Notes: a model not told the origin generated them from the letters alone. A DNA stretch of 64,000 nt from a virus (IMGVR_UViG_3300020045_001640:17083-81082), one strand, 5' to 3'. Counted from the first letter of the stretch, positions 30,321 through 47,843 are shown. A program made the numbers and translations.

Positions 30321-31259
30321 TTATTGTTTTGATATAGGCATTACAAAGTCTAGAAGATCCTCTAGCACAACATCTGTAAAGCACTCAGTAAATCCGTCAA
30401 ACACCTGCTCAACTCCGTTATAGTTACTTCTTAGCCAAGACAGTGTGGCCTTTTCAATACGTTGTATCTTAGCGCCATCTGTAGAGAAAATTTCAGTGTG
30501 TACTTTGAAATCTAAACCAGATGTTCTACTAATACTCCTGAGTCTTTTACTAACTGTCCGATTGGTTATTCCCACCTTGGTGATATTGTCAACTAGTAGT
30601 ATATAGAATACGCCAGCTTTAGTCTTACAATATCCCGCACCAGCACAGTCGGGGCAACCATGTCCTCGCATATGGTTACTGGGGGATACAGGAAAATCTC
30701 CATGATCTTTACACGTAACGTTGACAAGACACCTTCCATTGTCCCCCATTATCACATTCGTATAAGTATACTTATAGTTGTGCGCTATGTTTGATCTCTC
30801 TATAAACTCAGGTAAAGTCGTCCTCCTAAGTGCTGCAACAGTCTCAATACCACAATCTCTACAACCATCTCCGCACTTGTGCTTTGACGCCACTAAAGTA
30901 AACTTACCATGTTTTCGGCAGATAACATCCACAGGGATCTCATCCTTAATGTAGACAGTCTCTGAATAGTCGTACTTGTCTCCATGCACAGCAGTACAAC
31001 CAATAATAAACTGTTCTTGTGTCAGTGTTCTGGACTTTGCCCTCTTGACAAATCCGCAAAACTTACAGCCTTGACCAGACCTATGTTTACCTGCCATAAT
31101 ATTAAAGACGCCGTGTTCAGGGCAAGTAACATCTATAAACCCTTCAGTAGTCTCGTACTTCGTGTGCTCGTAAGTGTAGTAGCCCTTGTGGATTTCCGTA
31201 ACTTCTGCAATGTACTGCTCTGGAGACTTCCTGCGGTTCAATCTAATTTCTTTTACCAT
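30321..31259 (-). CDS. DUF723/CapR-like Zn-ribbon repeats (x3) + T5orf172/GIY-YIG-like nuclease
   Basis: Y.Y....Y...V.C..HG.F...H..G.GC..C repeats; KVGITNR...FDGFTECF. Confidence 0.8.
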   Translation of the reverse strand: MVKEIRLNRRKSPEQYIAEVTEIHKGYYTYEHTKYETTEGFIDVTCPEHGVFNIMAGKHRSGQGCKFCGFVKRAKSRTLTQEQFIIGCTAVHGDKYDYSETVYIKDEIPVDVICRKHGKFTLVASKHKCGDGCRDCGIETVAALRRTTLPEFIERSNIAHNYKYTYTNVIMGDNGRCLVNVTCKDHGDFPVSPSNHMRGHGCPDCAGAGYCKTKAGVFYILLVDNITKVGITNRTVSKRLRSISRTSGLDFKVHTEIFSTDGAKIQRIEKATLSWLRSNYNGVEQVFDGFTECFTDVVLEDLLDFVMPISKQ

Positions 31260-31340
31260 TTACACCCTTCGTATATCCAACATTGTGAATACACTAGGTG
31301 GACTGTCGCTAACATGGCAGACAGTCCGTAGTGTTCTTTA

Positions 31341-32248
31341 CTATTCCTTCTTACCAAACATCTCTAACAATGATTCTTTCAGTCGCATACTCTCTGCGTA
31401 GGCTTCATCCTTACTAATATCTTCAAGAATAATCTCTTTAGGGCATGGACGATTCGGAGCGTTCTCTGAAGCCTCTGAGCAATACTCTGAGCTTAGGAAG
31501 CGTATAGTTTGGAGTTCCCAATCACTCAACGTCGTGTGTGTCATCACAACAGGCATCCAGCGATTCGTGGGAGACTTAACCCACTCTATGTATTCTTCTT
31601 TGAAGAACAACTCAGCCCAAGCTTTAATCTCTTCCCATGAGATAGCTGTGATACCCATACCTCCTGATCCCACTGTTCCTACTTCATGCCAGATTTCAGC
31701 AAGCCATCTTTCGTAGGTTGACAGCGGAGCCATTTCGAGGTATGGTGAGCCTTCTAGATAACACTCTCTGCGTGGCTTGTCACCCTTGTCTGGCGTAGTG
31801 TTGAGCCAAGCAGTGTGACGAGCGTACGCAGAGAGGGAGGTTCTTACTTCTGCAAAAAACTAGCATCGACCTCAAGGAAGGCGCTTACTTGATCTTTTAC
31901 CCAATACAGAGTAGGATCGCTGAACAGTTCAACAAACTTGTCAGTGTTGTTAATTGGTACACCGTCGCCAAGGTCAAAGTTAAAAGCCTCTTGACAGACG
32001 GTTGCGAGCAGCTTATTATTAGCTTCAACGTTCTGTTCAAAAGTGGCTTTGCCGTTACGACCAGCTTGTTTGCGCGAGAGTTCTGAAACAGCGTTGCGAT
32101 AGGCTTTAGAAGCTTTACCGGCTACGAGGATTTCAAGGGGAAGCTTCTCCTTGTCGTCAGCGTACAGAGCAACGTCTGTTTCTGGATCACGCAAGTGCAG
32201 ACGTGCGGTTTCTTGGATTTGTTTTGCTTTGATGTTAAAAACTGCCAT
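31341..32248 (-). CDS. tail assembly chaperones G (31844..32248) and G-T fusion made by -1 frameshift
   Basis: Slippery T TTT TTG (31853-31859) just before the G stop; the -1 frame is open (FAEVRTSLSAYARHTAWL...) into ORF 31341..31733. Confidence 0.85.
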
Positions 32249-32392
32249 GATTTTGATTCCTTTAGTGTGGTGAATTAATGTACGTCCTGCTTATGCAGAA
32301 TCTGTAGTGAAGAATGGCTAACACTTGTTAGCCATTTATTGCAAGCTAGAAGAGTGGCAGATATAAGGTCTGCTCACTCGTAGCACAACTAT

Positions 32393-32836
32393 TTAAGCCA
32401 GAATAATGTTACCAGACAGTTCCACAGTGGCGTCAAAGCCGGTGATAGAGCCGGCACCACCAACAGCCGTTTGATATCCCATGACCAAGCCTTGTACATA
32501 CATCTTGGTAGCGTCAGCCAGAGTAATCAAGATCGAGTAAGGTGCTTGCGAATCCGAAGCAGCGATGAAAATCGTTTGGCCTGGATCACTCGGCGCGCGC
32601 GCGCCTTTTACGCTTAAATTCCCAGAATTTGCGATACCCTTGAGCTTATATGTGGTAGGATCGTTCACAGGGGTATGCGTAATCAGGCCGAAGGTTTTAC
32701 CCAAAGTACCGATTTCTGTTACTTCTTTAACCACTGTGTAAGTCAGCGCGCCGAAGCCTGCTGCGTCGTAGGTTGCTGGTACGCCAGCGGAGATGGAGAG
32801 TGAACTTCCGGCAGAACTGAAGGCAAGAGTAGCCAT
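32393..32836 (-). CDS. major tail tube protein
   Basis: 147 aa beta-rich; EVTEIGTLG, YKLKG..NSG; upstream of the chaperones. Confidence 0.8.
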   Translation of the reverse strand: MATLAFSSAGSSLSISAGVPATYDAAGFGALTYTVVKEVTEIGTLGKTFGLITHTPVNDPTTYKLKGIANSGNLSVKGARAPSDPGQTIFIAASDSQAPYSILITLADATKMYVQGLVMGYQTAVGGAGSITGFDATVELSGNIILA

Positions 32837-32859
32837 ATTGTGTTTCCTTTAAGTTTAAA

Positions 32860-33216
32860 TTAGATCAAGATGAAAGCATCTACAACAGCACCTGTAGCTG
32901 CGGAGATGGAGACGCTGCCCACTAAATAGGCTGGCACTGTATCAAGACGAACGACTGCATACGCGTTAGCAGCTACAGTAATCGCATAACCTGCTGCCAC
33001 GGACAGAGTTGCCCCGCCACAGCCCGGAACAGTGACAGTAGTGCCAGAGGCACCGTCAAGGGTTACTACAACACTGGACGCACTAGTATTAGCAAGAATA
33101 AGTTCTTGCCCGCCGTTGGGTGTGTAGACCAGAGTATCGCCTGATGTTGCTAGTGCGACCTTAGTAGGGGTGAAAGAACCTAGTACGTTCTTCAGAGTAT
33201 TTGTAACAACAGCCAT
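32860..33216 (-). CDS. putative virion structural protein
   Basis: Ala/Thr/Val/Gly-rich; AAGGA RBS; next to the tube gene. Confidence 0.6.
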   Translation of the reverse strand: MAVVTNTLKNVLGSFTPTKVALATSGDTLVYTPNGGQELILANTSASSVVVTLDGASGTTVTVPGCGGATLSVAAGYAITVAANAYAVVRLDTVPAYLVGSVSISAATGAVVDAFILI

Positions 33217-33219
33217 GAT

Positions 33220-34155
33220 TTATTCCTTATTGGTTAGAATTGTGCAGCACGCCTCAGACACGTTTAGTAACAGAGCGTTAATTTCGACAGCCTTAAAACA
33301 CTCGGTATGGCCGTCATGCTTGTCGTCAGTTTTAAAGCATTCCTCTGACAACTGTTTTAGTACGATCTCCTCAAGCTTTTTAGCTACTTCGCCATCTTGA
33401 AACTTAATGAAGAACGATACAGTAAAATCTTTACCGCTACTGTCGGCAATTTCTTTGGCCCGCACACCCACTTTTCGGTTAGTGATACCTACCTTAGTTG
33501 TACCATCCGACGATTGAAGTACATAAAACACACCGGGCTTGTTAGTACGATACCCTGTCTTCATGCACTTCTGACACCCCTTCCCTACAGAGTGCGCTCT
33601 AGATGATTGTGAGAACATCCCGTGTTCTTTGCAAACTATATTAACAAGGTCGTCCATAGTGCGGTACACAGTTCCAGAGTAGTCATACTTATCCCCGTGT
33701 TGCTGCTTACACATACTGATAAACTCTTGCTGCGTAAGTCGGGGCCGTCTTACGATATTCTTAGCACAAGATGGACACCCTCGACCACTCAGATGTTCGT
33801 TTGGGGTTTGCCAGAAACTACTATGCTCTTTGCAAACTACTTCAACTTTAACCTTTGCAGAAATGTACTCAACTAGTGAATAATCGTAAGTATGTTGATG
33901 TAACACCTCTGCCTTACTGATAAATTCTTGAGTGTTTCCAGTGCTTGCCAAGCCCCTCTTTACAGAGGCACAAGTTGGGCATCCTTGTCCCGATAAATGC
34001 TTTGATGGAGATTGACGGAAGATTCCGTGAACCTTGCACTCGATATCAACGTGTTGCTTGTTACCTACATACTCTACATTAGAGTAGTTATAAAGGTCGC
34101 CATGTAGCAGAACTGACTTGTCCATGAAGTCTTTTGTAGTCAGTCGTCTAGACAC
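33220..34155 (-). CDS. DUF723/CapR-like repeats (x3) + T5orf172-like nuclease
   Basis: Same repeats; KVGITNR...HDGHTECF. Confidence 0.8.
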   Translation of the reverse strand: MSRRLTTKDFMDKSVLLHGDLYNYSNVEYVGNKQHVDIECKVHGIFRQSPSKHLSGQGCPTCASVKRGLASTGNTQEFISKAEVLHQHTYDYSLVEYISAKVKVEVVCKEHSSFWQTPNEHLSGRGCPSCAKNIVRRPRLTQQEFISMCKQQHGDKYDYSGTVYRTMDDLVNIVCKEHGMFSQSSRAHSVGKGCQKCMKTGYRTNKPGVFYVLQSSDGTTKVGITNRKVGVRAKEIADSSGKDFTVSFFIKFQDGEVAKKLEEIVLKQLSEECFKTDDKHDGHTECFKAVEINALLLNVSEACCTILTNKE

Positions 34156-34167
34156 TTTTACCTCTTA

Positions 34168-34566
34168 TTAAGATTGTTGTTCTAACCTGTAGCTAATAAC
34201 AACAGGTGTAATACGATACCCGCTAGGGTCTAAGATTGCTTGCTTCTCACTCGGAGTGTTCTCAATACTCACACTACCCTGTTTCGGCACAAGCGGGAAA
34301 CTTGTCTTGATTGCTGCAACAATATCGTCTGTCTGTTTTGTGCCATTTCCCACAGGACACCACACATTAATCTGCATGATTCCTACTTGGCGCTGTCTAG
34401 TACCGTCAACAGTGACATCTATTGTCGCTGCTGGCATGATAAACATTTCAAGGAATGGTGCATTACCTAGAGGCTTTGTGAACTTAGTATTCTCAAGACA
34501 CAGAGGCAACGATAAAGAGGTTGCGAGGGTGGCAAGTCTATTGCTCAATTCTGATCTCACACTCAC
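34168..34566 (-). CDS. tail terminator protein
   Basis: G.MQINVWCPVGNG pattern and position. Confidence 0.7.
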   Translation of the reverse strand: MSVRSELSNRLATLATSLSLPLCLENTKFTKPLGNAPFLEMFIMPAATIDVTVDGTRQRQVGIMQINVWCPVGNGTKQTDDIVAAIKTSFPLVPKQGSVSIENTPSEKQAILDPSGYRITPVVISYRLEQQS

Positions 34567-35009
34567 ATGTATTTACCTTTCGTAGCAGCTACACTTAAAG
34601 CCACCATACGGTAGGGCTTCACATCATTTGACCAGACCCACCCGTTCGTACCCTCACCGGGCTTCCATCCCAAGACTTCAGCGTAATACGCCTGCTCAGT
34701 GTTGTTAGCAAGGGTCAGAATATTGTCCTTGCCAAAGAACGGCTTCTGTGCAATACTAGCTTTAATCCGAGCAAGGCTATCAGCACCAGAGTCGCTTGTA
34801 GCCGCTGTGATAGCAGTGCTTGGTGTTGGCCCTACAGCAGCGTACCATTGATTCTTTAGCTGGCCTTGAGAGTACTTTGCACCAAGAGCATGAGTAGGGC
34901 TAAGCTCTACAGCAGAAGTAGAGAGTTCTTCAAACACCTTACATGTGGCAGCATTCGCTGCAAGGAGAGCCTTCTGCTCCCACTTCTTAACGTCGTCAGC
35001 AAAGCTCAT
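34563..35009 (-). CDS. neck / tail completion protein (HK97 gp10-like)
   Basis: MSFADDVKKW...GQLKNQW...LANNTEQAYYAE...GMV-like end. Confidence 0.7.
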   Translation of the reverse strand: MSFADDVKKWEQKALLAANAATCKVFEELSTSAVELSPTHALGAKYSQGQLKNQWYAAVGPTPSTAITAATSDSGADSLARIKASIAQKPFFGKDNILTLANNTEQAYYAEVLGWKPGEGTNGWVWSNDVKPYRMVALSVAATKGKYM

Positions 35010-35032
35010 TGTTGTCTTTCTTCTTGGTGCGC

Positions 35033-35061: not shown

Positions 35062-35074
35062 GAGGGACACTGCG

Positions 35075-35353
35075 TCAATGACGTTTACAAGAAAGCACAA
35101 GTGTCAGTGTTGTAATCCTTGGAGGCACTGTACTGGTAGTAATCGTGTTTGCAAGATAGTATATCGTGTTGGCAACACCCCCTGTAGCAAACACAGAAGT
35201 TTTACCTCCCTCAATCTGCCCGTTAGACAATGTAAGCCCTCCTACATCTGCCCAGACACTATCCACAATCGTCTCACCAGTAGCTAACCACTTGGAGTAG
35301 TCAAAGCCGTAGTCTAGCGATGCTCCCGGTGAGTGTTCAAATTCATTATTCAT
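35075..35353 (-). CDS. fibre adaptor-like virion protein
   Basis: P.ASLDYGFDYSKWL..GETI...GG....Y...NTITT pattern. Confidence 0.6.
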   Translation of the reverse strand: MNNEFEHSPGASLDYGFDYSKWLATGETIVDSVWADVGGLTLSNGQIEGGKTSVFATGGVANTIYYLANTITTSTVPPRITTLTLVLSCKRH

Positions 35354-35361
35354 ATTTTCCT

Positions 35362-35778
35362 TTAGCGCCTCACTACTACGAAGCTTTGACGTGGTGGGAC
35401 ACTTATAGAGCGCCTTATTTCCAGTGTGTACGATATAATTGCACCATCAACTGAATATGTGCAGACAAGGTTGCTTGACACAACACTCTGATCGAATACT
35501 GAATAGCTTCCAGTGATGTCTGAATAAACTTCCACATTGACGCTGTACGAAGCTACCAAGTCTGCCAACACACTTGACATTGCGCTGTCAATGTTATAAC
35601 TACTTAATAGGTCAGAGCTTACTGAAGTCAATACCAAATAGTTTGCAACAAGGTCTGCGGATACGAGTGAATGTACGCCATAGGAGCAGACCATATCTGC
35701 GCTTACCGGAGCTGACCCGGCAAATTCGGCAGCACTCGCTGATATCGGCGCGCTGCCCAGTGGCGAAACGCCGAGCAT
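35362..35778 (-). CDS. virion fibre-associated protein
   Basis: MLGVSPLGSAPIS N-terminus; internal S.DL...Y repeats. Confidence 0.55.
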   Translation of the reverse strand: MLGVSPLGSAPISASAAEFAGSAPVSADMVCSYGVHSLVSADLVANYLVLTSVSSDLLSSYNIDSAMSSVLADLVASYSVNVEVYSDITGSYSVFDQSVVSSNLVCTYSVDGAIISYTLEIRRSISVPPRQSFVVVRR

Positions 35779-38307
35779 TTAGTTTGCCCCCGCGCCGACG
35801 ACGACCTTGTAGCAGTTCACGTTATTGGTGACGAAATTAGTGTCATCAATGCCGACATGGCTTTTCACGACCGTTGCCTGCAAAATCGCCACCTTGCGAG
35901 TCGTGGTGCCGCCGTAGTGATTGATATCGCTGTTGAAGTCGAACCAATTTCCATCGGTATTGTGTTCCGTGCTGTAGCAGCCAATTGCCAGCGCGTGATT
36001 GCCATTGATCGCAATCGAGTTCTTCGAGCACTCGACCAGCAAGTGCCCGATGTACGAACCGTGCATCGCCGCTGGCAGGTTGATAGCGTTGACGCAGCCC
36101 AGCGCGATGATCGACTTCGCGCACGTATGTTCACCGAACACCACGCCGTCCGTGTAGCCAGCAACCAGAATCGTTCCGATGTTGAATTGCGCATGGTTGT
36201 TGATCGGAGGAATATGTACACCCTTGCTGTTGACCGCGCTAGGATTCGGGCAGCTAATGATCGGCATGTTTACGTCAACCCGAATATTATCCAGCTCCAC
36301 GATCTGGCTGAAATAATCCAGACCCAGTGCGCTCATCGGGTTGGCACCGCTATCGACCTTGGTGCGGAAGCCCATATTGCGGAAACCTATGTTCGTATAG
36401 TTCCAGCGCATGCCGCTCGGGTCAGATGCGGAGCCAATCTCGCCGCGCAGGAGATACGACCCGGCATTCCCGACGATGGTAGACTCGAAAATGGTCCCAT
36501 TGGTCGTGACAGGCATCGACAGCAGCCCCTGCATTTCAAGATTCGGGGGCGCGGCACCTTCAAACATAATCGTCCGGTTCGGTGCCGTCGAGAGTGTGTT
36601 GGGGATATACAGTTGTGCGTTACTGACACCACGCGCACCCGCGATCTTGAACCTGCCGTCAGGGCATTTGATGCGTGAAATGTTCTTGTCGTAAGCCTTG
36701 ATGATTGCCGCCTGAATGCCAGCGGTCGAATCGGCGGTAAAGGTAGGGTCAACATCGAAGTCCCTCAAGTCGATGTAATCCTTGACAGCGAAGGCGGCAA
36801 CGGCACGCGCAGGCACCGTGCAGAATACATTCTTCGCGCCGGTCGAGAATGACACCTTGGCACCCGCGCTGCTGCTGCTGAACACTACGTCGCGCGAGAG
36901 CGTGGTTGCAGTTAAGAGGGTTCCTTCACCGGATTCCCACTCAGAACCAATCGCATTTTCGATGCAATAAGGAATCTTCTTTGTACCAGTCGCATAGGCG
37001 CTGGCGAAGGTGCGGACCGAAGCGTTTGAAAGCGTCATTGTCCCTATCCCCTCGGTTGTCGTGGTGTCCTTCACGCGATCCGCGAACTGTAGTGACCTTT
37101 CAGATGAATAGGTCTGTGGCACCGCAGCAGTAGTGGTCAGTGTGGCCGACAGATGTGTAGATCGGTTTGCCGCCTCGTCAAAGGCGCGAACGCGGACGGG
37201 GTAGCTCGTGGATGCGGTCAGCCCCGTCACTGTGATCGTCAGCACATTTCCGGCGCTGGTATAGGTCGATCCATCGTTCAGGCTGTATTCATACCCTGTC
37301 ACGGCAACATCATCGGAAGCTGTCGGCCACGTAAGAACCCCGCTGCCGCTAGTCTGGCCGGATACCGTTACCGTTCCAGTGAACGTAGGGGCGGTGATAT
37401 CGGCGCCCGATGCCGGCGTCACGCTGTTCGATGCTGCCGATGCGGCGCTGGCGCCGATTGCATTGGTCGCCGTCACGCTGAAAGTGTAAGGCGTCCCGTT
37501 CGTCAATCCGGCCACGGCAATCGGGCTGCTTGCGCCCGTGCCAGTCAGCGCGCCCGGTGACGATGTTGCGGTATAGCCCGTAATCGCGCTGCCGCCGTCC
37601 GACGATGGCGCCGTAAATGTGACGGTTGCCGCGCCGTTGCCAGCGGTCGCCGTGCCGATTACAGGAGCGCCGGGGGCGGTGGCCGCGTCAACCGCATCAC
37701 CGGCTGAAAAGCTTCCGATAAAGTGCTGCGTTGCTACAGCGTTGGTTTTGAACCAGACGCCGGGATAACCGGCTGCTACGACGCGTGATGCTGAAGTGTC
37801 ATCTGCTGTTGCAACAGTCACCCCATTGACTTTAAGGGCAAGCGTAACCGTAGCGCCGGAGCCGACCACGGTTAGCTCGCACGAATAGTACGTTGCTGTT
37901 GTTAGTGTGTAGGTGGAGGATGCCGCGAGCAACGTGGTCGCCAAGGCAGCGCCAAGGCGGTACAACTCCCATTTGCTTGTGGTTTGCTGGTACACCGCCA
38001 TATAGCCGGCGTTTCCTGCTGCGTTCAGGCGCGCAGCAGCACCGATGGACGAAAGTGCTGCGATGGAGTCTACATACTGCGTCCAGCTAATCTTTACGTC
38101 TGCTGCCGGCGCAATTGTTGATGCTTTCCACAGTTGCGATGCGCCAGACCCGGAACATATCACGCCGCCGTGCGCTGTGTACACTCCAGGAGAGGTGGCA
38201 TTTCCACCCCAAACGGCCCAAGTGCCGCCACTATCGGAGGTGTGCGACGTGAGCAGTGTGTTGTTGACCGCTTCTGTAAAGGTATCGTTGAAAAACGTAG
38301 TCATCAT
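35779..38307 (-). CDS. mosaic fibre/spike: beta-sandwich + 2x Fn3 + DRVKDTT fibre domain + pectin-lyase-like beta-helix
   Basis: APGAPVIGTATAGNG and TWPTASDDVAVTGYEY (Fn3); DFDVDPT..ADSTAGIQAAI...PDGRFKI (tailspike helix start). Confidence 0.75.
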   Translation of the reverse strand: MMTTFFNDTFTEAVNNTLLTSHTSDSGGTWAVWGGNATSPGVYTAHGGVICSGSGASQLWKASTIAPAADVKISWTQYVDSIAALSSIGAAARLNAAGNAGYMAVYQQTTSKWELYRLGAALATTLLAASSTYTLTTATYYSCELTVVGSGATVTLALKVNGVTVATADDTSASRVVAAGYPGVWFKTNAVATQHFIGSFSAGDAVDAATAPGAPVIGTATAGNGAATVTFTAPSSDGGSAITGYTATSSPGALTGTGASSPIAVAGLTNGTPYTFSVTATNAIGASAASAASNSVTPASGADITAPTFTGTVTVSGQTSGSGVLTWPTASDDVAVTGYEYSLNDGSTYTSAGNVLTITVTGLTASTSYPVRVRAFDEAANRSTHLSATLTTTAAVPQTYSSERSLQFADRVKDTTTTEGIGTMTLSNASVRTFASAYATGTKKIPYCIENAIGSEWESGEGTLLTATTLSRDVVFSSSSAGAKVSFSTGAKNVFCTVPARAVAAFAVKDYIDLRDFDVDPTFTADSTAGIQAAIIKAYDKNISRIKCPDGRFKIAGARGVSNAQLYIPNTLSTAPNRTIMFEGAAPPNLEMQGLLSMPVTTNGTIFESTIVGNAGSYLLRGEIGSASDPSGMRWNYTNIGFRNMGFRTKVDSGANPMSALGLDYFSQIVELDNIRVDVNMPIISCPNPSAVNSKGVHIPPINNHAQFNIGTILVAGYTDGVVFGEHTCAKSIIALGCVNAINLPAAMHGSYIGHLLVECSKNSIAINGNHALAIGCYSTEHNTDGNWFDFNSDINHYGGTTTRKVAILQATVVKSHVGIDDTNFVTNNVNCYKVVVGAGAN

Positions 38308-38341
38308 GCCCCTCGGCTATTCGTGTGTGTGGACAACTTGC

Positions 38342-38836
38342 TTAAGCGGTTGTATTGCCAGTTGCGCGCAGGGTAAAGCCATCGGCAAATGCCGTAGCCC
38401 CTGCAAGGGTAGTGCGGCGCAGCCACACGGAACGGCCTTGACCGGCAGGAATGTCGCCCAAAGCCACGCCAGCACCTTGAGTTGCGGCAGAGGCAAAGGT
38501 GACCCCAGCCGGTGCAGCATTTTCATCTACAACGGTCTGTTCAGTTGCATTGATGGCAGCGGTGCCGACACCCACATCGACGGAGGTGGATACCGATGGG
38601 GTGTCGGCCGGGAGCCACAAGACTGCGCCAGTGAGGGTCAAGGTTGCATGGGCGTTATGCACGTAGATGCAGCGATACTCAACGTCTCCAGCGGTTGATT
38701 CGGCGGAGCTAACATCATCAAAGATGGACGCAGAAGCAGCAGTGCTAGACTTAGCCCCACCAAGGGATGCTGCTTGTACAGCATTGGATGCACCACCAGA
38801 GAGGCGGAAAATGATGTCAGTAGTGAGGATTGCCAT
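38342..38836 (-). CDS. putative virion structural protein
   Basis: AAGGA RBS; LSGG.SN...SLGG, YRCIYVHN. Confidence 0.65.
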   Translation of the reverse strand: MAILTTDIIFRLSGGASNAVQAASLGGAKSSTAASASIFDDVSSAESTAGDVEYRCIYVHNAHATLTLTGAVLWLPADTPSVSTSVDVGVGTAAINATEQTVVDENAAPAGVTFASAATQGAGVALGDIPAGQGRSVWLRRTTLAGATAFADGFTLRATGNTTA

Positions 38837-39868: not shown

Positions 39869-39944
39869 TGAGTTTCCTTTATATTCTATTTATGTACTCG
39901 GAGGAATACATAAGTGGAATAGGCCCGCGTTAGCGGGCCGTAGT

Positions 39945-40670
39945 CTAAGCGTAGCCTCTTAGAATCTCTTGATGTACAAACTTCTTAAAGTCGTCTAGAT
40001 TGACGTTGATGAAACACTCAGAGTATCCGTCGAACTTTGCGTCAGGTTGTACATGAGTTTTTCTCAAGGCTCTCAAGACTCTTTGCTCAATTTCATGAGC
40101 TTCTTTGCCGTTGTAGAACAGCCAGTCTGCCACTACTGCAAAATCCTCACCAGAGCTTTTAGAGATGGATTTGGCACGATCTTTAGGCTTACGATTTGTG
40201 ATACCTACCTTAACTATGCTGTCGCTTGCGAGAACGTATAAATGGCCCTCTTTACCCGAGTTGTAGCCAGTCTTGGCGCAACAAGGACAACCTGCTCCAC
40301 CCAAGTGGGCATTAGGGGTTTGATTGAAAGTGGTCTGGCAAGTGTTACAACTGATTCTAACTTTACACATTGCACGCTCGTAGACAACATCAGAGTAGTT
40401 GTAGGCAACTCCATTCAAATCTTCTGCTGCCTTACAGAAGCTTGCTGTATCACCAGCCAGCTTGTTCACTGTGCGACTTGTGCCACACTTCTTGCAACCA
40501 CCCATACTAAAATGCGAATTAGGAGTCTGTTCAAACATGCCGTGTACAGGGCAGATAATCTTTAATTTAGTCTTTGCATCTACGTATAGCGACAGACTAT
40601 AATCATAGAAGTTGTTATACTTCTTAGAACCTTTAATCTCGAAACCCTCTTGTGTCAGCTTCTTAGGCAC
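39945..40670 (-). CDS. DUF723/CapR-like repeats (x2) + T5orf172-like nuclease
   Basis: KVGITNR...FDGYSECF; AAGGAG RBS and GTG start. Confidence 0.8.
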   Translation of the reverse strand: MPKKLTQEGFEIKGSKKYNNFYDYSLSLYVDAKTKLKIICPVHGMFEQTPNSHFSMGGCKKCGTSRTVNKLAGDTASFCKAAEDLNGVAYNYSDVVYERAMCKVRISCNTCQTTFNQTPNAHLGGAGCPCCAKTGYNSGKEGHLYVLASDSIVKVGITNRKPKDRAKSISKSSGEDFAVVADWLFYNGKEAHEIEQRVLRALRKTHVQPDAKFDGYSECFINVNLDDFKKFVHQEILRGYA

Positions 40671-40686
40671 TGAATCTCCTTATTAG

Positions 40687-40726
40687 TGTAGCCACCAAGT
40701 ATAACACCGAGTAGCTACAATGTAAA
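40687..40726 (-). promoter_or_regulatory. promoter of the nuclease gene with a 9-bp inverted repeat around the -10
   Basis: TTTACA-17bp-TATACT; TGTAGCTAC...GTGGCTACA. Confidence 0.6.
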
Positions 40727-40728
40727 GA

Positions 40729-40756
40729 GACTAGCCGGTAGTTACCCGGCAAAGTC
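40729..40756 (-). terminator. hairpin after the major capsid gene (putative terminator)
   Basis: GACTTTGCCGG-GTAACTA-CCGGCTAGTC then TCTTT. Confidence 0.55.
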
Positions 40757-40768: not shown

Positions 40769-41803
40769 TTAGTTGGACGAGAACACACGAACCACAGCTT
40801 GAGGGCGCAGGAGGGCGCTGATGCTATTGCACTCCGTCTCAATCGTGATCTTCGTGCCGTTCGATTCAGCTTGCTCAAAGGCGTACATCTTCTCGCCTTG
40901 AGTGTTGACCAGACCAAAGCGTTCTGCTGGAGCGAAGTAGGTGCGGAACATGTCCGAACCCGTAGGAACTGCAACACCTTCCGAAGCAGTAACAATCTTC
41001 GTGCCGTTGTAGCTATCACGAACTTCACGGAAAGTGACGCCACCGAAGTAGAACTCACGACCCATTGGCAGTGGCGAACCGTTAGCAGCCAAGCGACCAC
41101 GCATTGGATCAGTACCTTGTTGCAGGTTCTGTGCGTATGTGTATGCCGCTTTTACTGCCGCGTGTTGAATCAGTTTCTGGAACAGTGCCGTATCGCAAGG
41201 GATAACAATACCGTTGAATACACCGTTACCCCCCATACCGTTTTGCACAGCAACGATGATGTCTTCAATCTTAGCCAAAACCTCAGTGGTGGATGTGCCC
41301 AACACCAGATCGACCTCTGGACGAGTCACATTGAACTCCGTGTTCCAGTTTTGTACGACAGTACCGTTTGGGGCGTAGACAGTTGCCGAGAACAGTGCTT
41401 GAGCGCGAGCTTTGTTAAGCGTCCAATCGTGATTCTGGCGCAGACGGATCAGCTTGCGTTGACGCACTGCATCCAGTTGCTCAACTTCGTTGAAGTTGTC
41501 ATAGGCCGACTTTGCAACCAAGTCTTTTGGCGAAATGAAGTCGTCCAAAGGGAAATGTGGCACTGCAAAAGTGTGCAGCTTGCGGCTACCCTCTTTGCTA
41601 ACAGTGTTCTTCTCACCGCGAACACGGTCAACGATCAGAGCACCGTCTTGCGTGGTTTCTTCAAACATCACCGAGTCACTGGCAACGCCTTCTTCAGAGA
41701 AGATACCCATTTGATTGAAAGTACCCCATTGGATAGGGATGTTACGTACAGCCGATGTCAGATCAACTACATCGAAGTTATTACTTGGGCTACGAATAAG
41801 CAT
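40769..41803 (-). CDS. major capsid protein (lambda gpE-like family)
   Basis: 344 aa between decoration and adaptor genes; FAVPHFPLDD, YFAPAE. Confidence 0.9.
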   Translation of the reverse strand: MLIRSPSNNFDVVDLTSAVRNIPIQWGTFNQMGIFSEEGVASDSVMFEETTQDGALIVDRVRGEKNTVSKEGSRKLHTFAVPHFPLDDFISPKDLVAKSAYDNFNEVEQLDAVRQRKLIRLRQNHDWTLNKARAQALFSATVYAPNGTVVQNWNTEFNVTRPEVDLVLGTSTTEVLAKIEDIIVAVQNGMGGNGVFNGIVIPCDTALFQKLIQHAAVKAAYTYAQNLQQGTDPMRGRLAANGSPLPMGREFYFGGVTFREVRDSYNGTKIVTASEGVAVPTGSDMFRTYFAPAERFGLVNTQGEKMYAFEQAESNGTKITIETECNSISALLRPQAVVRVFSSN

Positions 41804-42235: not shown

Positions 42236-42246
42236 TTTATTTCCTT

Positions 42247-42765: not shown

Positions 42766-43600
42766 GTTTCTTTCCTTTACCCATCTCAGCCAAATGTTTG
42801 GCGAATTGTTTGTGATCTTGAATACTGTTGACCAGCCCTGCTTCAAGTGCAGCCTCTGCGTGGTACATCTTTGCATTCATAGCGAGGATGTCTTCAACAG
42901 GAAGTCCTGTATATTTACTGACATGCTCTGCGAATTGCGCACCAAGCCTTGTAACGTCTGCTTGAATACCTTCTAAGAAGTCCTTGGAAAATGCACCACT
43001 AGCTTCAAAAGGAGTCTTACCTTCTGAGCTTGCTATATAGATTGGCTTCAAACCAGCATTATCTAGTGCTTTGCTTTGATCCATCAGGCATACAACGCAA
43101 CCTATGCTGCCAGTAGAAGCACTAGGGTGAATAACTACCTCGTCGGCTGCAATACCAATTGCAAGTGAAGCGGAAGCGGAATAAGTGTCAATGTAAGATA
43201 CCCACGTAACACCTGCTTCGTCACACATCTCTCGCAGATCGGATGCTGTTGCAAAACAATGTGCTGCCTCACCACCACCACTAGAATGTACTGTAACGAG
43301 TGTGGAGATTCCTTCGTCAATAAGCATCTGAGCTTGCTCTAGGATGCCTTTGTAGCTTGTACCAACGTCGCCACAGATGCCGTCAACGGGTTGGTAAGTA
43401 AGAGCACCATCAATCTTAATCTCGCCAATACTGCCCATCTTCGTAGGCTTTACAGCCTCTTTAGAGCCAGCCACAACTGTGCTTGACAGTTGTGTATTAC
43501 GGTTGTGGAGATAATCTAAGATTGGTGACAGCGCTTCTTGTGTGATAAGGTGAGGGACTGAATACAGCCGTGATGTGAAGCGTAGTAGGTTATGTGCCAT
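42758..43600 (-). CDS. prohead protease (S49/SppA family)
   Basis: HSSGGGEA, SASASLA, TGSIG. Confidence 0.9.
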   Translation of the reverse strand: MAHNLLRFTSRLYSVPHLITQEALSPILDYLHNRNTQLSSTVVAGSKEAVKPTKMGSIGEIKIDGALTYQPVDGICGDVGTSYKGILEQAQMLIDEGISTLVTVHSSGGGEAAHCFATASDLREMCDEAGVTWVSYIDTYSASASLAIGIAADEVVIHPSASTGSIGCVVCLMDQSKALDNAGLKPIYIASSEGKTPFEASGAFSKDFLEGIQADVTRLGAQFAEHVSKYTGLPVEDILAMNAKMYHAEAALEAGLVNSIQDHKQFAKHLAEMGKGKKHA

Positions 43601-43608
43601 GTGTTCCT

Positions 43609-45132
43609 TTATGCTGTGTTGTCCGCGTTTCGCGCACTATTATCTTGACCACCGGGCTTTTTAGCAGTACCATCACCTGTAACGCCTACTGCCATACCTT
43701 CACCAGCACTAGAAGATTTACCGGCAAGCGTTGTGGACAGATTATCTTGGTCAATCGGATCATCTTCAGGTTTCAACTCAAAGCCACCAACTTCACGAAT
43801 CTTGTTCATGACGCCACGATCCATTTCCAGACCACCAACAGACATGACACGCTGAATGTATTTTGAGAATTCTTCCAAGCTGACAGAACTAACGTCCTTA
43901 AACTTTATCTTCGGAAGTCGTTCAGTATTCCAGCCATTCAAGCGCCACAAAAGTGGAACCAATTCTTGATTGAGGGTACTGGCAATCTCAGACAAGCGAT
44001 AAGCCACTTGCAAAGCCAACAGGTTTGTGCCAGAGTCTTGCAATGACAAAGAACCACCGTCTGTACCCATTGAGATTGAATCACAAGAGAGTACGCTGAG
44101 AATATTTGCTTGGAGCATTTTGACAATAGCTGGCAAGTCGTATGCTTTACCTTGCTTTTGTTCCAATAAAGAGAAATGGAATAAGTCTTGCTTCGTATTT
44201 TCATCAACCATCTTGGGGAAGATGATACCGCGAGAAGTGCCGTCTGCTACACTGTTCAGAATTGTCTGAGTAGCTGTGTAAACTGCTTTGTCCTCTGGGC
44301 TTGCATTAGAATCGAGATATCTAGGGGGCAACTGAGCAAAAGGAATTCCAGAGGTGTCCTTAGCCACGCCCATCATCATATGTTCGTTCAGAAGCGTTAG
44401 CATCTTGTGTGCGAGATACGCAGAACGAAGAATACTTGTACCTTCTGGATTGTCATTTGCGGGGTCACAACGGAACAAGACGAACTTATCACGAGGAATA
44501 ACGATCAAGCCGTTCTCGTCTGTCAGGTTCTTAAAGCGATAGTTGTTCTCTACATTTACGATTGATTGCGAGATACTTACAAGTGTTCTACCATCCTCAC
44601 TAAAGTTCCACTTGGCAATAGAGTTCTGAGGACGATTCTTAAGTCCTACCAAACCGATCAGGCCGTCATTCCACTTGGAGCCGTTCTTTGTGAGACGACG
44701 ACGAAACACCATCTCGTGAACACTATGACCATATTCTTTGTATGTGCTGATAGACTGCATCGTGGCTTGCCATGAGTTATCCATGTCAGCTAGTACAGAT
44801 GTCAAGTAGTCTCTGCGGGATTTCTCTGTCTCAGTCTCACCGTTGACAGGTTCTACGTACACATCAGCGCGGTTCATCAGAACGTTAATTGCTTGCAGGC
44901 CAATTGCCACTGGAGGTGAGTACTTCATCTCCGCAACAACTTTAAGCATGTTCGGGTAGGTGAAAGCAGAGTTGGACTCTTCAAGCATCTTACCAGAGCG
45001 TGTCTTCAGTACTGCAAAGCCCACCTCCCCAAGCCGCATACGCGGGACACTTGTGCCTTCGTCTGGTGCAGTATTATCAACAGGAGCGTTCGCTTGCGAA
45101 GCACCTTCCGGCGCAGTCTTTTTCCTTGCCAT
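43609..45132 (-). CDS. portal protein
   Basis: 507 aa after TerL; RLGEVG, NPEGTSILR, LNQELVPLL..LNG. Confidence 0.9.
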   Translation of the reverse strand: MARKKTAPEGASQANAPVDNTAPDEGTSVPRMRLGEVGFAVLKTRSGKMLEESNSAFTYPNMLKVVAEMKYSPPVAIGLQAINVLMNRADVYVEPVNGETETEKSRRDYLTSVLADMDNSWQATMQSISTYKEYGHSVHEMVFRRRLTKNGSKWNDGLIGLVGLKNRPQNSIAKWNFSEDGRTLVSISQSIVNVENNYRFKNLTDENGLIVIPRDKFVLFRCDPANDNPEGTSILRSAYLAHKMLTLLNEHMMMGVAKDTSGIPFAQLPPRYLDSNASPEDKAVYTATQTILNSVADGTSRGIIFPKMVDENTKQDLFHFSLLEQKQGKAYDLPAIVKMLQANILSVLSCDSISMGTDGGSLSLQDSGTNLLALQVAYRLSEIASTLNQELVPLLWRLNGWNTERLPKIKFKDVSSVSLEEFSKYIQRVMSVGGLEMDRGVMNKIREVGGFELKPEDDPIDQDNLSTTLAGKSSSAGEGMAVGVTGDGTAKKPGGQDNSARNADNTA

Positions 45133-45171
45133 AAAGGGCTTCCTTGTGTTAGAATGCCTTGAGGCATAATT

Positions 45172-45211
45172 TAATGTTGCGCATTATAACCTACTGATGG
45201 TTGTTTGTCAA
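45172..45211 (-). promoter_or_regulatory. consensus promoter of the portal operon
   Basis: TTGACA-17bp-TATAAT then GCGCAACATTA. Confidence 0.8.
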
Positions 45212-45219
45212 TAGGCTAT

Positions 45220-46668
45220 TTAGATGCGGGGAATTGGTGAGGATTGTGTGATTACTGGGATGGAGAATGTGGGTATATTCACACTGCGACAAAGGTAATT
45301 GAAAGCACAACCTGTTGCGTCCACCATGTCGTCATGATCGTTCCTACTGCCTGTGAAACCTTCAAGCTCTGTAAGGAAAGGCTCAATCCACTCATCTCGT
45401 TGGTCGCCGTATCGTACAATAGAGACTGCCCTTGCTTCAACCATCTGTGCGAAAGGAAGAATACGATTGATCTTGCTACTGTGACCACTCATTTGTGTAG
45501 ATCGGACAATACAACCTTGCTCAGAGAGATACTTGGTAAAGTAGGTGTTGGCAATCTTTCCACCCGCACCTGTATCCCGTTCCAACAACACTGGCACATC
45601 TAAACCGTCTGCGAAGGCTGTATTAGTTATTTCTCTCAACACACCGTCAGTTAGTTTACGGAATGTGTTACAATCTTCAATATAGTAGTGTCCCATCTTA
45701 TCACGAGACATAAGCACACCAGCAGAAGCATCACAATGAGGGTTAGACTCAGATACAACAGATGCAGCAGTATCCCAACCCCTAGCCCTACCAGTCACCT
45801 CTGAGGGTGGGCAAGGTACGAAGTTGAACCATTCTCTACGTATATAGGAATTTCCTTCAGTCACTGCTGTCCAACTACCTTTTAAGAATCTTAACTGGTT
45901 GACACGGCTTTGTGCCATCAAGTCGGCTAAGTACGCTGGGTTGTTCTTGAGAAGAATAGGGTTTGAGTAGATATCCATCGGGATGAAGCGGAAGCTCAGT
46001 GGTCTGAAATCTTCACCAAGCTTGTAACCTTGTCCGTGCTTCTCAAATAACTCTTCTCTTGTATTGCCCCAAAAGATTTTACCAGAGAGGATCACGAACC
46101 AGCGTGTGATATCTTCTGTTCCGGGAAGCGGTACGCCCTCTTCATCAAGGGAAAAGGAAACGAAGTCAAAGAGCCACGATTTACGGGATGGATTACAGGT
46201 ACACATCATGTTCAGCTTACCCTTGAAGCGAACAGCCCGTAAACGGGCGCGCAAGGCAAGGATATCTGCAAGTGTGAACTCTGCGGCCTCATCGACAATG
46301 ATGTTGCTGTATTGTTGGCCCTGGAGTTCTGTCAAGTCTTGAGGCATTGCGTAGAACTTAATCAAAGCGCCATTCGGAAAATGCCACTCCAGTTTTTGTT
46401 CTTTCCACACTGCACCGAAGTGAGAGTAGATGTGCTTGGACTCAGAAACAAGCCCACCCGCACTCTTAAGAAGCGGGTAGGTGAGCCTCACGATCAACAC
46501 GACTGCTGCACTATCTTGAACGTATTTCAACGCCTTGACAAGAGCCATGTGGGACTTACCTCCCCCATTCCCACCCCCTACAACGAGAAGGTCAGTGTCG
46601 AAATCTTGCAAAACCTTTTGTTGTTTTATACTACAAGGGCCAAATGAAAGTCTGTCCTCTTTACTCAT
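45220..46668 (-). CDS. terL: terminase large subunit
   Basis: Walker A GGGNGGGKS, Walker B IIVDEA, TCNP, nuclease GWD...HDDMVDA. Confidence 0.95.
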   Translation of the reverse strand: MSKEDRLSFGPCSIKQQKVLQDFDTDLLVVGGGNGGGKSHMALVKALKYVQDSAAVVLIVRLTYPLLKSAGGLVSESKHIYSHFGAVWKEQKLEWHFPNGALIKFYAMPQDLTELQGQQYSNIIVDEAAEFTLADILALRARLRAVRFKGKLNMMCTCNPSRKSWLFDFVSFSLDEEGVPLPGTEDITRWFVILSGKIFWGNTREELFEKHGQGYKLGEDFRPLSFRFIPMDIYSNPILLKNNPAYLADLMAQSRVNQLRFLKGSWTAVTEGNSYIRREWFNFVPCPPSEVTGRARGWDTAASVVSESNPHCDASAGVLMSRDKMGHYYIEDCNTFRKLTDGVLREITNTAFADGLDVPVLLERDTGAGGKIANTYFTKYLSEQGCIVRSTQMSGHSSKINRILPFAQMVEARAVSIVRYGDQRDEWIEPFLTELEGFTGSRNDHDDMVDATGCAFNYLCRSVNIPTFSIPVITQSSPIPRI

Positions 46669-46679
46669 TTACTCTCCAA

Positions 46680-47843
46680 CTATTTGTACACCTCGGCCTC
46701 AACTATAGAAAACAGTGTGTGGTTATCTGCCTCTACAAAGCACTCTGTGCTTCCGTTGTACTTCATAGAGGGGTTATCATATAAGCTGCGCAGCTTTTGC
46801 AATATCAGTGTTTCAGCGTCAGAACAATCTTTACCGTTTGAAAAGTCGTAAGTTTTTACCACCTCGAAATGAAACCCAGAATCCTTATTAATCTCTTTGA
46901 TTCTGACAGAAGGCTCTCGGTTAGTGATCCCTACTTTTGTAATGCTCCCGCAGCTTAAAACATACAACATTGCAGGCTTCTCAAAATTAAAGCCGTACTC
47001 GGCGCAATAAGAACACCCATGACCTGCTAAGTGTTTAGAAGCTTTTACACTCCAGTAATTCCCACAAGACGCACAGCCAATATCTACTCTACCCAGTGCC
47101 TTAGTGTATTCAACCCTGTCATAGAGAAATTTACCATCTCCGTGTTTAGCCTTACTCGACTTGATAAAGTCTTCTGTACTGTTTCTGAGGTTAAATCCAC
47201 GTTGGTTACTGGCACAAATTGCGCACCCAAAGCCGGACTTGTGCCCAGATGGTGTCTGCTTAAAGTCTACACCACAGGTACGGCAACCAATTACTACGTA
47301 CTCCGTGGACAACGTGTATTTAACTTTGGAGTAGTCATACTTATCTCCGTGTATGGCTACACTCTCTGCAATGAAATCTGAAGCGGCTCGGCTTTGTTTA
47401 GCTTTACCTCTTGTATCTCCAAAACACAAAGGACAACCTGCCCCTCGGAAGTGCTCTGCTGGAGTTTGTGTAAACTCTCCGTGTTTCTCACATATAATTG
47501 TGACCTTCTGGTTAGTCGTTGTGTATTTCGATAAGCTATAATCGTAACGATCCCCATGTGCCGCAGCACATCTTGCCAAGAAAGATTCAGCAGAATGCTT
47601 TCTATACTGTCCTTGGCGCTTCTTCCCGCAAGAGGGACAACCTCTACCCGTCAAGTTGTGGTTCGGCTTCTGCTTAAACCAAGCACCGCATACTAGACAA
47701 CCGATATCTACATGCAGTTTAGAGTGTATATAGTCTACTTTAGAATAGTCTAGAATACCTTCTCCATGTAGTGCAATCGACTTTTGGATAAAGGCTTCTG
47801 TGTTACAGGAATTTCCATTAATACCGTGAACAACATCATGCAT
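46680..47843 (-). CDS. DUF723/CapR-like repeats (x4) + T5orf172-like nuclease
   Basis: Four Zn-ribbon repeats; KVGITNR...YNGSTECF; ATG 47843 after GGGAGG. Confidence 0.8.
   Translation of the reverse strand: MHDVVHGINGNSCNTEAFIQKSIALHGEGILDYSKVDYIHSKLHVDIGCLVCGAWFKQKPNHNLTGRGCPSCGKKRQGQYRKHSAESFLARCAAAHGDRYDYSLSKYTTTNQKVTIICEKHGEFTQTPAEHFRGAGCPLCFGDTRGKAKQSRAASDFIAESVAIHGDKYDYSKVKYTLSTEYVVIGCRTCGVDFKQTPSGHKSGFGCAICASNQRGFNLRNSTEDFIKSSKAKHGDGKFLYDRVEYTKALGRVDIGCASCGNYWSVKASKHLAGHGCSYCAEYGFNFEKPAMLYVLSCGSITKVGITNREPSVRIKEINKDSGFHFEVVKTYDFSNGKDCSDAETLILQKLRSLYDNPSMKYNGSTECFVEADNHTLFSIVEAEVYK

What the first reader, a model, noticed from the sequence alone, without database searches (positions are those of the whole stretch)
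30321..47843. Four paralogous Zn-ribbon-array nucleases (2, 3, 3 and 4 repeats) interleaved in the virion morphogenesis operon
Seen: ORFs at 30321, 33220, 39945 and 46680 all carry tandem YDYS..Y...C..HG.F...H..G.GC..C repeats and a C-terminal KVGITNR...(F/H/Y)(D/N)G..ECF domain. They sit just before the tape measure gene, between two tail genes, after the capsid gene and before terL, and they interrupt no gene. Repeat number and repeat sequences differ between copies. Known: this DUF723/T5orf172 architecture resembles Vibrio phage ICP1 homing-endonuclease genes, and related domains were domesticated as the PLE capsid-operon repressor CapR and the anti-satellite nuclease Odn/Gp88. Inference: these may be a modular family of sequence-specific nucleases or DNA binders used against competing phages or satellites, or to tune late genes, rather than simple selfish elements.
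Basis: partly seen in the sequence, partly recalled or inferred. Interest (0 to 1): 0.75.

Follow-up and report, generated by a model that had tools for sequence, protein, structure and literature searches.

The report
Four homing endonuclease genes in phage
Four related genes sitting between the head and tail genes of an 81-kb phage are ordinary free-standing homing endonuclease genes of a known phage family (zinc-finger array plus T5orf172 nuclease), so this is a clear example of a known thing, not a new system.

Summary
Four minus-strand ORFs (30321-31259, 33220-34155, 39945-40670, 46680-47843) each carry 3, 3, 2 and 4 tandem ~62-aa zinc-finger units plus a C-terminal T5orf172 nuclease domain. 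They sit in intergenic junctions before the tape-measure gene, after the tail terminator, after the capsid gene and before terL.

All four match phrog_681 'endonuclease' (E 1e-52 to 1e-74). The modelled nuclease domain best matches GIY-YIG nucleases, and the conserved Tyr/Arg/Glu positions are intact.

In about 65 related phage loci the same junctions are either empty (0-130 nt) or occupied (0.5-3 kb). Occupants are this family, HNH, GIY-YIG/NUMOD or endonuclease VII genes, and some copies are decayed. The HEG-2 site is empty in 34 of 35 clade loci and in the closest metagenome relative. The four copies share no more than 48% identity in the nuclease domain, and HEG-2 has no homolog above 49% identity in the large protein database.

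This architecture and placement are already described (Barth, Dunham & Seed 2023). Verdict: a new member of a known kind, of low interest.

The parts
30321..31259 (-). HEG-1, 312 aa. Three Zn-finger units (30633-31232) plus a T5orf172-type nuclease domain (30324-30632). Sits between the p130 gene (probably a tail assembly chaperone) and the tape measure gene.
   Evidence: phrog_681 E 2.7e-52; MUG113 23.6 bits, cutoff 22.3.
33220..34155 (-). HEG-2, 311 aa, GTG start. Three Zn-finger units (33553-34146) plus the nuclease domain (33223-33552). Sits between the tail terminator and p118. This junction is empty in 34 of 35 clade loci and in L088.
   Evidence: (E 8.8e-64).
39945..40670 (-). HEG-3, 241 aa, GTG start. 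Two Zn-finger units (40266-40661) plus the nuclease domain (39948-40265). Sits between the major head protein and p146.
   Evidence: T5orf172 25.6 bits, cutoff 20; E 2.1e-52. AF2 model pLDDT 93. Residues 138-241 match GIY-YIG nucleases at Z 7.1, 6.6 and 6.0.
46680..47843 (-). HEG-4, 387 aa from the ATG (392 aa from the TTG at 47858). Four Zn-finger units (46992-47804) plus the nuclease domain (46683-46991). Ends 11 nt upstream of terL.
   Evidence: T5orf172 24.1 bits, DUF4379 40.1 bits; E 1.4e-74.
40673..40732 (-). RNA hairpin in front of HEG-3. It pairs the Shine-Dalgarno AAGGAGA (40675-40681) with UCUCUUU. A promoter-like TTTACA-17-TATACT (40726-40698) lies inside the hairpin.
   Evidence: z = -3.9, 0 of 200 shuffles fold as well; promoter-like site, 10 of 12; low SD accessibility. 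The regulatory reading is inference.
40734..40750 (-). Terminator-like hairpin directly after the major head protein gene and upstream of HEG-3.
   Evidence: (5 G-C pairs followed by a T-rich tail).
39922..39939 (-). G+C-rich stem-loop (GGCCCGC-TAAC-GCGGGCC) just after the HEG-3 stop codon.
   Evidence: Read directly from the sequence. The scan did not call it a terminator because there is no T run.
47848..47935 (-). Structured 5' region of HEG-4: a long hairpin (47876-47935) and a small hairpin that includes the GGGAGG Shine-Dalgarno (47848-47863).
   Evidence: (z = -4.0, 0 of 200 shuffles).

Best explanation
These are four free-standing homing endonuclease genes (HEGs) of the T5orf172 class. 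Each protein is a string of independently folded zinc-finger units, which read a long DNA target, followed by a C-terminal GIY-YIG-superfamily nuclease.

The inferred mechanism is homing. During mixed infection with a related phage that lacks the gene, the enzyme cuts the empty allele near its own insertion junction. Recombinational repair then copies the HEG and flanking markers into the cut genome.

Each copy sits in an intergenic junction next to a conserved structural gene, so it interrupts nothing. Expression is probably kept low by RNA structure over the ribosome-binding site.

Shown here: the domain architecture, the fold, the conserved catalytic positions, the sporadic site occupancy and the reuse of sites by other HEG classes. 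Inferred: cleavage, target identity and actual homing.
For: Family: phrog_681 E 1e-52 to 1e-74. T5orf172 or MUG113 score above the Pfam cutoff in three of the four. A clade profile hits the terL-adjacent ICP1 T5orf172 HEG at E 2.8e-29.

Fold: in the HEG-3 model (pLDDT 93), residues 138-241 best match the GIY-YIG nucleases At-HIGLE (Z 7.1, rmsd 2.1 A over 81 residues) and Slx1 (Z 6.6 and 6.0). I-TevI and UvrC GIY-YIG domains rank lower in the list.

Catalytic positions: Y145, R165 and E195 (HEG-3 numbering) are invariant in 25 clade members. Arg and Glu are the catalytic residues shown for the T5orf172 nuclease Odn, where E180A kills activity.

Population pattern in about 65 related loci: junction gaps are bimodal, empty at 0-130 nt or occupied at 0.5-3 kb. 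This family occurs upstream of terL in 10 loci, at MTP|p134 in 6, at MCP|p146 in 5, at p118|MTP in 2 and at p130|TMP in 1. The Tterm|p118 junction is empty in 34 of 35 and in the nearest relative L088.

Other occupied gaps hold GIY-YIG/NUMOD (15 of 45 ORFs), HNH (about 11) and endonuclease VII (4) genes. Truncated copies of 72, 160 and 208 aa occur in relatives.

Insertion site is clustered on the nuclease-domain tree (12 changes against 16.9 for shuffled labels, 0 of 200 shuffles as low). The nearest relative of HEG-3 sits at the same site in another phage.

The HEGs are more AT-rich (GC 41.5-43.5%) than their neighbours (44-52%). Their Shine-Dalgarno sites rank 2nd, 3rd, 4th and 7th least accessible of 23 genes (rank-sum p = 0.003).

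The literature already describes this architecture and placement.
Against: No T5orf172 HEG has been shown experimentally to home; Barth 2023 says so.

No near-identical copy was found elsewhere. HEG-2 is at most 49% identical to any of 5,252 homologs. All four are at most 48% identical to clade copies in the nuclease domain. So recent mobility is not shown.

The terL gene shared at 90% aa with G001 has synonymous divergence as saturated as its neighbours, so it gives no sign of recent HEG-driven conversion.

The fold match is moderate (Z about 7), and the mapping of catalytic residues is by alignment only.

Many related loci are near-duplicate contigs, so the occupancy counts are not independent lineages.
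Confidence: 0.8

Rival explanations
1. One or more copies has been domesticated or has a second job. Candidates are a regulator of late or structural genes (like CapR, or like I-TevI autorepression), or a sequence-specific weapon against satellites or unrelated competitors (like Odn).
For: The family has produced both kinds of derivative. HEG-3 carries its own promoter-like site inside an RBS-masking hairpin next to the capsid gene. Four intact copies with invariant catalytic residues suggest selection is maintaining them. The window has more copies of this family (4 in 17.5 kb) than any related locus, where the range is 0-2.
Against: No copy is conserved in position among relatives, and the sites are mostly empty or hold unrelated HEG classes. 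All four keep the nuclease domain, unlike CapR. None has a RepA_N or other borrowed specificity domain, unlike Odn. Intact ORFs are equally expected for HEGs that still home in a polymorphic population.
Confidence: 0.1
2. HEG-4, immediately upstream of terL, is an accessory nuclease for genome packaging, as proposed for the HNH protein upstream of the HK97 terminase.
For: Its position is 11 nt upstream of terL. Barth 2023 notes that the two readings are not mutually exclusive for HK97-like phages.
Against: Among roughly 47 relatives with terL, only 10 carry this family upstream. Others carry HNH or HNH-AP2 genes or small unrelated ORFs. G001, whose terL is 90% identical, has HNH-AP2 there instead. 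An accessory needed for packaging should co-vary with terL.
Confidence: 0.03
3. The four genes are old, fixed, no-longer-mobile passengers: HEGs that have lost their empty target alleles and are drifting toward decay.
For: No close homologs were found. The copies and their units are deeply diverged from one another, at 20-47% between units.
Against: All four ORFs are full length with every invariant catalytic and zinc-ligand position intact. Empty alleles are abundant in the clade, so targets still exist.
Confidence: 0.07

Closest known systems
ICP1-type T5orf172 homing endonuclease genes (e.g. ICP1 ORF130/gp131 next to terL; Barth, Dunham & Seed 2023, PMC10448857)
   Same: N-terminal tandem CapR/DUF723/DUF4379-type zinc fingers ('beads on a string') plus a C-terminal T5orf172 nuclease. 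Free-standing genes next to terL, capsid and tape-measure genes. Variable repeat number, variable presence, and site sharing with other HEG classes. The clade profile hits ICP1 gp131 at E 2.8e-29 over the full architecture.
   Different: The host phage is unrelated: an uncultured 81-kb virus whose terL is only about 37% identical to any GenBank phage. ICP1 copies share high nucleotide similarity with each other, whereas these four are no more than 48% identical in the nuclease domain. The second ligand pair here is C-x2-C, and the first is often C-x2-H. No intron is associated with terL here.
CapR, the PLE satellite repressor of the ICP1 capsid operon (PMC8096241)
   Same: A related zinc-finger DNA-binding module. 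Pfam CapR gives weak sub-threshold hits to 2 of the 12 units.
   Different: CapR matches only the DNA-binding part of the ICP1 HEGs and acts as a repressor encoded by a satellite. All four proteins here keep a nuclease domain with intact catalytic positions and are encoded by the phage.
Odn (ICP1 Gp88), the origin-directed anti-satellite nuclease (PMC8263062)
   Same: A T5orf172 nuclease domain with conserved catalytic Arg and Glu.
   Different: Odn's specificity domain is a RepA_N domain resembling the satellite's RepA. The proteins here have zinc-finger arrays and no RepA_N match.
T4 free-standing GIY-YIG HEGs (Seg proteins) and I-TevI
   Same: A GIY-YIG-superfamily catalytic domain joined to a modular DNA-binding region. 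Intergenic location beside conserved genes. From my own knowledge, not tested here: in T4, translation from read-through transcripts is masked by hairpins that contain a late promoter, which resembles the arrangement in front of HEG-3.
   Different: Domain order is reversed (the nuclease is C-terminal here). The DNA-binding modules differ. The structural match to I-TevI is only weak (Z 3.6).

Membership tests
T5orf172 / GIY-YIG-superfamily nuclease | Sequence match to Pfam T5orf172 (PF10544) or its sibling MUG113 (PF13455) above the curated cutoff | tested here: met
   HEG-3: T5orf172 25.6 bits and MUG113 26.8. HEG-4: 24.1 and 34.8. HEG-1: MUG113 23.6 (cutoffs 20 and 22.3). HEG-2 has no Pfam hit for this domain but aligns column for column with the others.
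T5orf172 / GIY-YIG-superfamily nuclease | GIY-YIG-type fold of the domain | tested here: met
   The top three matches for residues 138-241 are GIY-YIG nucleases (7wme Z 7.1, 6seh Z 6.6, 7cq2 Z 6.0), with 2lwf, 1ln0 and 1ycz lower. Z is moderate. Foldseek on the whole model found nothing at E<=0.001.
T5orf172 / GIY-YIG-superfamily nuclease | Conserved catalytic Arg and Glu (plus the Tyr of the GIY motif) | tested here: met
   Y145, R165 and E195 (HEG-3 numbering) are invariant in 25 sequences, including all four window copies. The mapping to catalytic roles is by spacing and by analogy with Odn E180, not by residue-level superposition.
T5orf172 / GIY-YIG-superfamily nuclease | Endonuclease activity | not testable with these tools
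   Needs purified protein and a cleavage assay.
CapR / DUF723 / DUF4379 zinc-finger DNA-binding repeats | Four zinc ligands in two pairs about 15-20 residues apart, within a beta-hairpin plus helix unit | tested here: met
   C-x2-(H/C) ... C-x2-C is present in 12 of 12 units. The model shows helix, beta-hairpin and short helices per unit.
CapR / DUF723 / DUF4379 zinc-finger DNA-binding repeats | Pfam match above the curated cutoff | tested here: inconclusive
   HEG-4 scores 40.1 bits for DUF4379 over the whole protein (cutoff 24.5), but no single stretch passes on its own. Single units give only sub-threshold hits: DUF4379 5 of 12, CapR 2 of 12, DUF723 1 of 12. The database's precomputed Pfam lists PF05265 for HEG-2. 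phrog_4605 matches are strong.
CapR / DUF723 / DUF4379 zinc-finger DNA-binding repeats | Sequence-specific DNA binding | not testable with these tools
   Needs EMSA or DAP-seq.
Free-standing homing endonuclease gene (functional class) | Sporadic presence or absence at a fixed intergenic site among related genomes | tested here: met
   Junction gaps are bimodal. The HEG-1 and HEG-2 sites are empty in G001. Tterm|p118 is empty in 34 of 35 loci and in L088.
Free-standing homing endonuclease gene (functional class) | Same sites used by unrelated HEG classes, and decayed copies present | tested here: met
Free-standing homing endonuclease gene (functional class) | Signs of recent mobility: near-identical copies in otherwise different genomes, or co-conversion tracts | tested here: not met
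   Best identity is 49% or less (HEG-2 only) and 48% or less within the clade. Synonymous divergence of terL equals that of its neighbours.
Free-standing homing endonuclease gene (functional class) | Cleavage of the HEG-less allele and biased inheritance in crosses | not testable with these tools
   Not yet shown for any T5orf172 HEG.
Domesticated derivatives (CapR-type repressor, Odn-type anti-satellite nuclease) | CapR type: DNA-binding module without a nuclease domain | tested here: not met
   All four keep the nuclease domain.
Domesticated derivatives (CapR-type repressor, Odn-type anti-satellite nuclease) | Odn type: specificity domain borrowed from the target element (RepA_N) | tested here: not met
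   No RepA_N or other foreign DNA-binding domain was found in Pfam at E<=0.01.

The most novel reading that the evidence does not exclude
At least one copy does more than home. The likeliest candidates are HEG-3, with its own promoter-like site inside an RBS-masking hairpin right after the capsid gene, and HEG-4 upstream of terL. Possible extra roles are binding late or structural promoters, as I-TevI autorepression or CapR do, or excluding co-infecting relatives or satellites. Four intact copies in one operon would then be kept by selection on the phage and not only by selfish drive.
Probability: 0.1. Interest if true: 0.5.

Novelty: new member of a known kind. Interest (0 to 1): 0.18.

Why it matters
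As it stands this is a textbook-quality natural example, not a discovery. One uncultured phage clade shows the same structural-gene junctions empty, filled by T5orf172 HEGs with 1-5 zinc-finger units, or filled by HNH, GIY-YIG/NUMOD or endonuclease VII genes.

That makes the clade a convenient system for two open practical questions. Homing by T5orf172 HEGs has never been demonstrated. How a zinc-finger array of variable length sets target specificity is also unknown. The natural empty alleles found here are ready-made candidate substrates for both.

Tried and rejected
1. Megablast of the 18-kb region against GenBank phages found no match. The phage has no cultured close relative.

2. I tested whether the terL gene shared at 90% aa with G001 is a recently transferred 'HEG island'. 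Four-fold-site divergence is 0.60, the same as portal (0.61) and MCP (0.52), so recent exchange is not supported.

3. I tested for intragenomic duplication. The four copies do not form a clade, units are 20-47% identical, and no array shows recent internal duplication.

4. A profile search against PDB sequences gave no hit. Foldseek on the whole model gave nothing at E<=0.001.

5. A single repeat unit folded alone (pLDDT 84) has no convincing solved relative. The best is Z 4.1, to a trypanosome mitoribosome assembly protein.

6. DNA alignment of the empty (L088) and occupied (window) Tterm|p118 junctions was too diverged to define insertion boundaries or a target site.

7. The nuclease-domain tree backbone is unresolved (3 of 24 inner branches supported), so no donor or order of acquisition can be given.

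8. The promoter and terminator scans as a whole are not enriched over shuffles: 26 against 23 promoter-like sites, and 16 against 16 terminator-like sites. Only individual sites are cited.

9. I considered the spurious-ORF and non-coding readings and rejected them because of the HMM scores.


Full report
WHAT IS THERE

The window is bases 17083-81082 of a complete 81,082-bp uncultured virus genome with direct terminal repeats. On the minus strand lies a head-to-tail morphogenesis operon. In order it holds:
- terL (45220-46668), portal, protease, a scaffold-like gene, a decoration protein and the major head protein (40769-41803);
- connector genes and a G+C-rich four-gene block;
- the tail terminator (34168-34566), p118, the major tail protein (32393-32836), two small genes in the position of tail assembly chaperones, and a 1923-aa tape measure gene (24540-30311).

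Four extra ORFs are interleaved: HEG-4 (46680-47843), HEG-3 (39945-40670), HEG-2 (33220-34155) and HEG-1 (30321-31259). These are the only copies in the genome.

The twelve repeat units (3, 3, 2 and 4 in coordinate order) align to one ~62-aa module. Its two ligand pairs are invariant, C-x2-(H/C) and C-x2-C. All four proteins end in the same ~110-aa domain.

All four match phrog_681 'endonuclease' at E 1e-52 to 1e-74. Three reach the Pfam cutoffs for T5orf172 or its sibling MUG113. The zinc-finger units give only weak Pfam matches to DUF4379, CapR and DUF723.

No flanking gene is interrupted. Each aligns end to end with its ortholog in a related phage.

ANATOMY AND LIKELY CHEMISTRY

An AlphaFold model of HEG-3, built on 25 clade sequences, is confident (pLDDT 93). 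Each unit is a helix, a beta-hairpin and short helices.

The best solved matches for the C-terminal domain (residues 138-241) are all GIY-YIG nucleases: At-HIGLE (Z 7.1, rmsd 2.1 A over 81 residues) and Slx1 (Z 6.6 and 6.0). AtGRXS16, I-TevI and UvrC domains rank lower. Z values near 7 are moderate, but the agreement among the hits is what counts.

Y145, R165 and E195 (HEG-3 numbering) are invariant across the clade. In the one biochemically tested T5orf172 nuclease, Odn, the Arg and Glu are conserved and E180A abolishes cleavage. So all four proteins look like active nucleases. That is an inference.

The unit fold has no convincing solved relative.

THE POPULATION PICTURE DECIDES THE READING

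GenBank has no close relative. IMG/VR holds a clade of roughly 75-95-kb phages with the same gene order: 61 loci found through the capsid protein and more through the tail protein.

Mapping the core genes shows that gap lengths at each junction are bimodal: 0-130 nt or 0.5-3 kb. Members of this family occur at these junctions:
- upstream of terL: 10 loci;
- MTP|p134: 6 loci;
- MCP|p146: 5 loci (4 distinct phages);
- p118|MTP: 2 loci;
- p130|TMP: 1 locus.

They carry 1-5 zinc-finger units, and several are truncated.

The complete relative G001 has one copy, after its capsid gene. That copy is closer to HEG-1 (38%) than to HEG-3 (32%). G001's HEG-1 and HEG-2 sites are empty, and its terL is flanked instead by two HNH genes and a GIY-YIG/NUMOD3 gene.

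Of 45 other gap-filling ORFs in the clade, 15 match GIY-YIG/NUMOD homing endonucleases, about 11 match HNH families and 4 match endonuclease VII.

The HEG-2 junction is empty in 34 of 35 clade loci. It is also empty in L088, the closest metagenome relative of that region (MTP 78% identical). There, protein identity steps from 39% to 64-78% across the site.

Many loci are near-duplicate contigs, so these are counts of loci and not of independent events.

SUPPORTING DETAILS

Insertion site is clustered on the nuclease-domain tree (12 changes against 16.9 shuffled; 0 of 200 shuffles as low). HEG-3's nearest relative sits at the same site in another phage. The backbone is unresolved, and the four window copies are not a clade.

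The HEGs are more AT-rich than their neighbours.

Three of the four 5' regions fold much better than shuffles, at z -3.5 to -4.0. The Shine-Dalgarno sites of the four rank 2nd, 3rd, 4th and 7th least accessible of 23 operon genes (p = 0.003).

In front of HEG-3, the Shine-Dalgarno is paired in a hairpin that encloses a promoter-like TTTACA-17-TATACT. Read-through from the capsid gene would mask the site, and internal initiation would free it. From my own knowledge, the same logic is known for T4 HEGs. It is untested here.

WHAT DOES NOT FIT, OR IS MISSING

No recent mobility is visible. HEG-2 is at most 49% identical to any of 5,252 homologs, and clade copies are at most 48% identical in the nuclease domain.

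The terL shared at 90% aa with G001 looked like a 'HEG island'. Its four-fold sites, however, are as diverged (0.60) as those of portal and capsid (0.61 and 0.52), so it is not evidence of recent conversion.

Homing has not been shown experimentally for any T5orf172 HEG.

COMPARISON WITH WHAT IS KNOWN

Barth, Dunham & Seed 2023 (PMC10448857) describe exactly this. T5orf172 HEGs carry repeated CapR/DUF723/DUF4379 zinc fingers ('beads on a string'). They are enriched next to terminase (35%), capsid (31%) and tape-measure genes. Their content is unstable, and cognate sites hold HEGs of other classes.

A profile of the clade's proteins hits ICP1 ORF130/gp131, the T5orf172 HEG next to ICP1 terL, at E 2.8e-29.

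CapR matches only the DNA-binding part of the ICP1 HEGs and acts as a repressor. Odn has a RepA_N specificity domain. Neither feature is present here.

VERDICT

The proposal of a role beyond selfish homing is unsupported. This is a new member of a known kind, and interest is low. The residual novel reading, a second regulatory or exclusion role for one copy, has a probability of about 0.1.

Noticed in passing
window 48222-48297 (-): tRNA-Thr (anticodon UGU) in the ~700-nt ORF-free stretch between the 111-aa gene (48553-48888) and HEG-4. ARAGORN and Rfam agree (72.5 bits).
   Followed up: yes
window 35075-38836 (-): A G+C-rich block (57% against about 45%) of four genes: 164 aa, 842 aa with two FN3 domains, 138 aa and 92 aa. 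It lies between the head-closure gene and p148. It is absent from relative G001. The Hc1|p148 junction varies from 0 to 6.8 kb across the clade, and parts of the 842-aa and 92-aa proteins recur in some relatives.
   Followed up: partly
window 45220-46668 vs L001:10001-11449: terL is 90% identical in protein to relative G001, while portal, protease, capsid and tail genes are 35-55%. Synonymous sites are equally saturated. Across the clade, terL and capsid identities are uncoupled (for example L008 has MCP 84% and terL 41%), which indicates old modular reassortment.
   Followed up: partly
L001:7964-8764, 9310-10008, 11520-12323 (relative G001): terL of the relative is bracketed by three HEGs of other classes: HNH, HNH-AP2 (overlapping the terL start) and GIY-YIG/NUMOD3 (between terL and portal).
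   Followed up: yes
L057:11572-12525 and L058:11577-12536: Two relatives carry, downstream of p146, proteins with three of the same zinc-finger units but a clearly different C-terminal domain. They form a separate, fully supported branch on a long stem. L030:3235-4044 has one unit joined to a 206-aa C-terminal part that does not align with the T5orf172 domain. Both fit nuclease-domain swapping.
   Followed up: no
window 45211-45183, 35061-35033, 48950-48922 (-): Perfect or near-perfect sigma-70 consensus promoters (TTGACA-17-TATAAT) lie between terL and portal, before p148, and before the 111-aa gene upstream of the tRNA.
   Followed up: no
models m8ea48550a002 and m0675fd1f860d: The weak best structural matches of the zinc-finger unit are repeatedly trypanosomatid mitoribosome assembly or small-subunit proteins (6sga_Fd Z 4.1 at 20% identity; also 6hiv_DS, 7aor_at, 6yxx_E2). 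This may be only a shared small zinc-binding motif.
   Followed up: no
window 33216-33235 (-): The Shine-Dalgarno (AAGGAA) of p118 lies inside the last codons of HEG-2. HEG-2 starts 12 nt after the tail-terminator stop. The insertion is therefore packed tightly enough to supply the downstream gene's ribosome-binding site.
   Followed up: no
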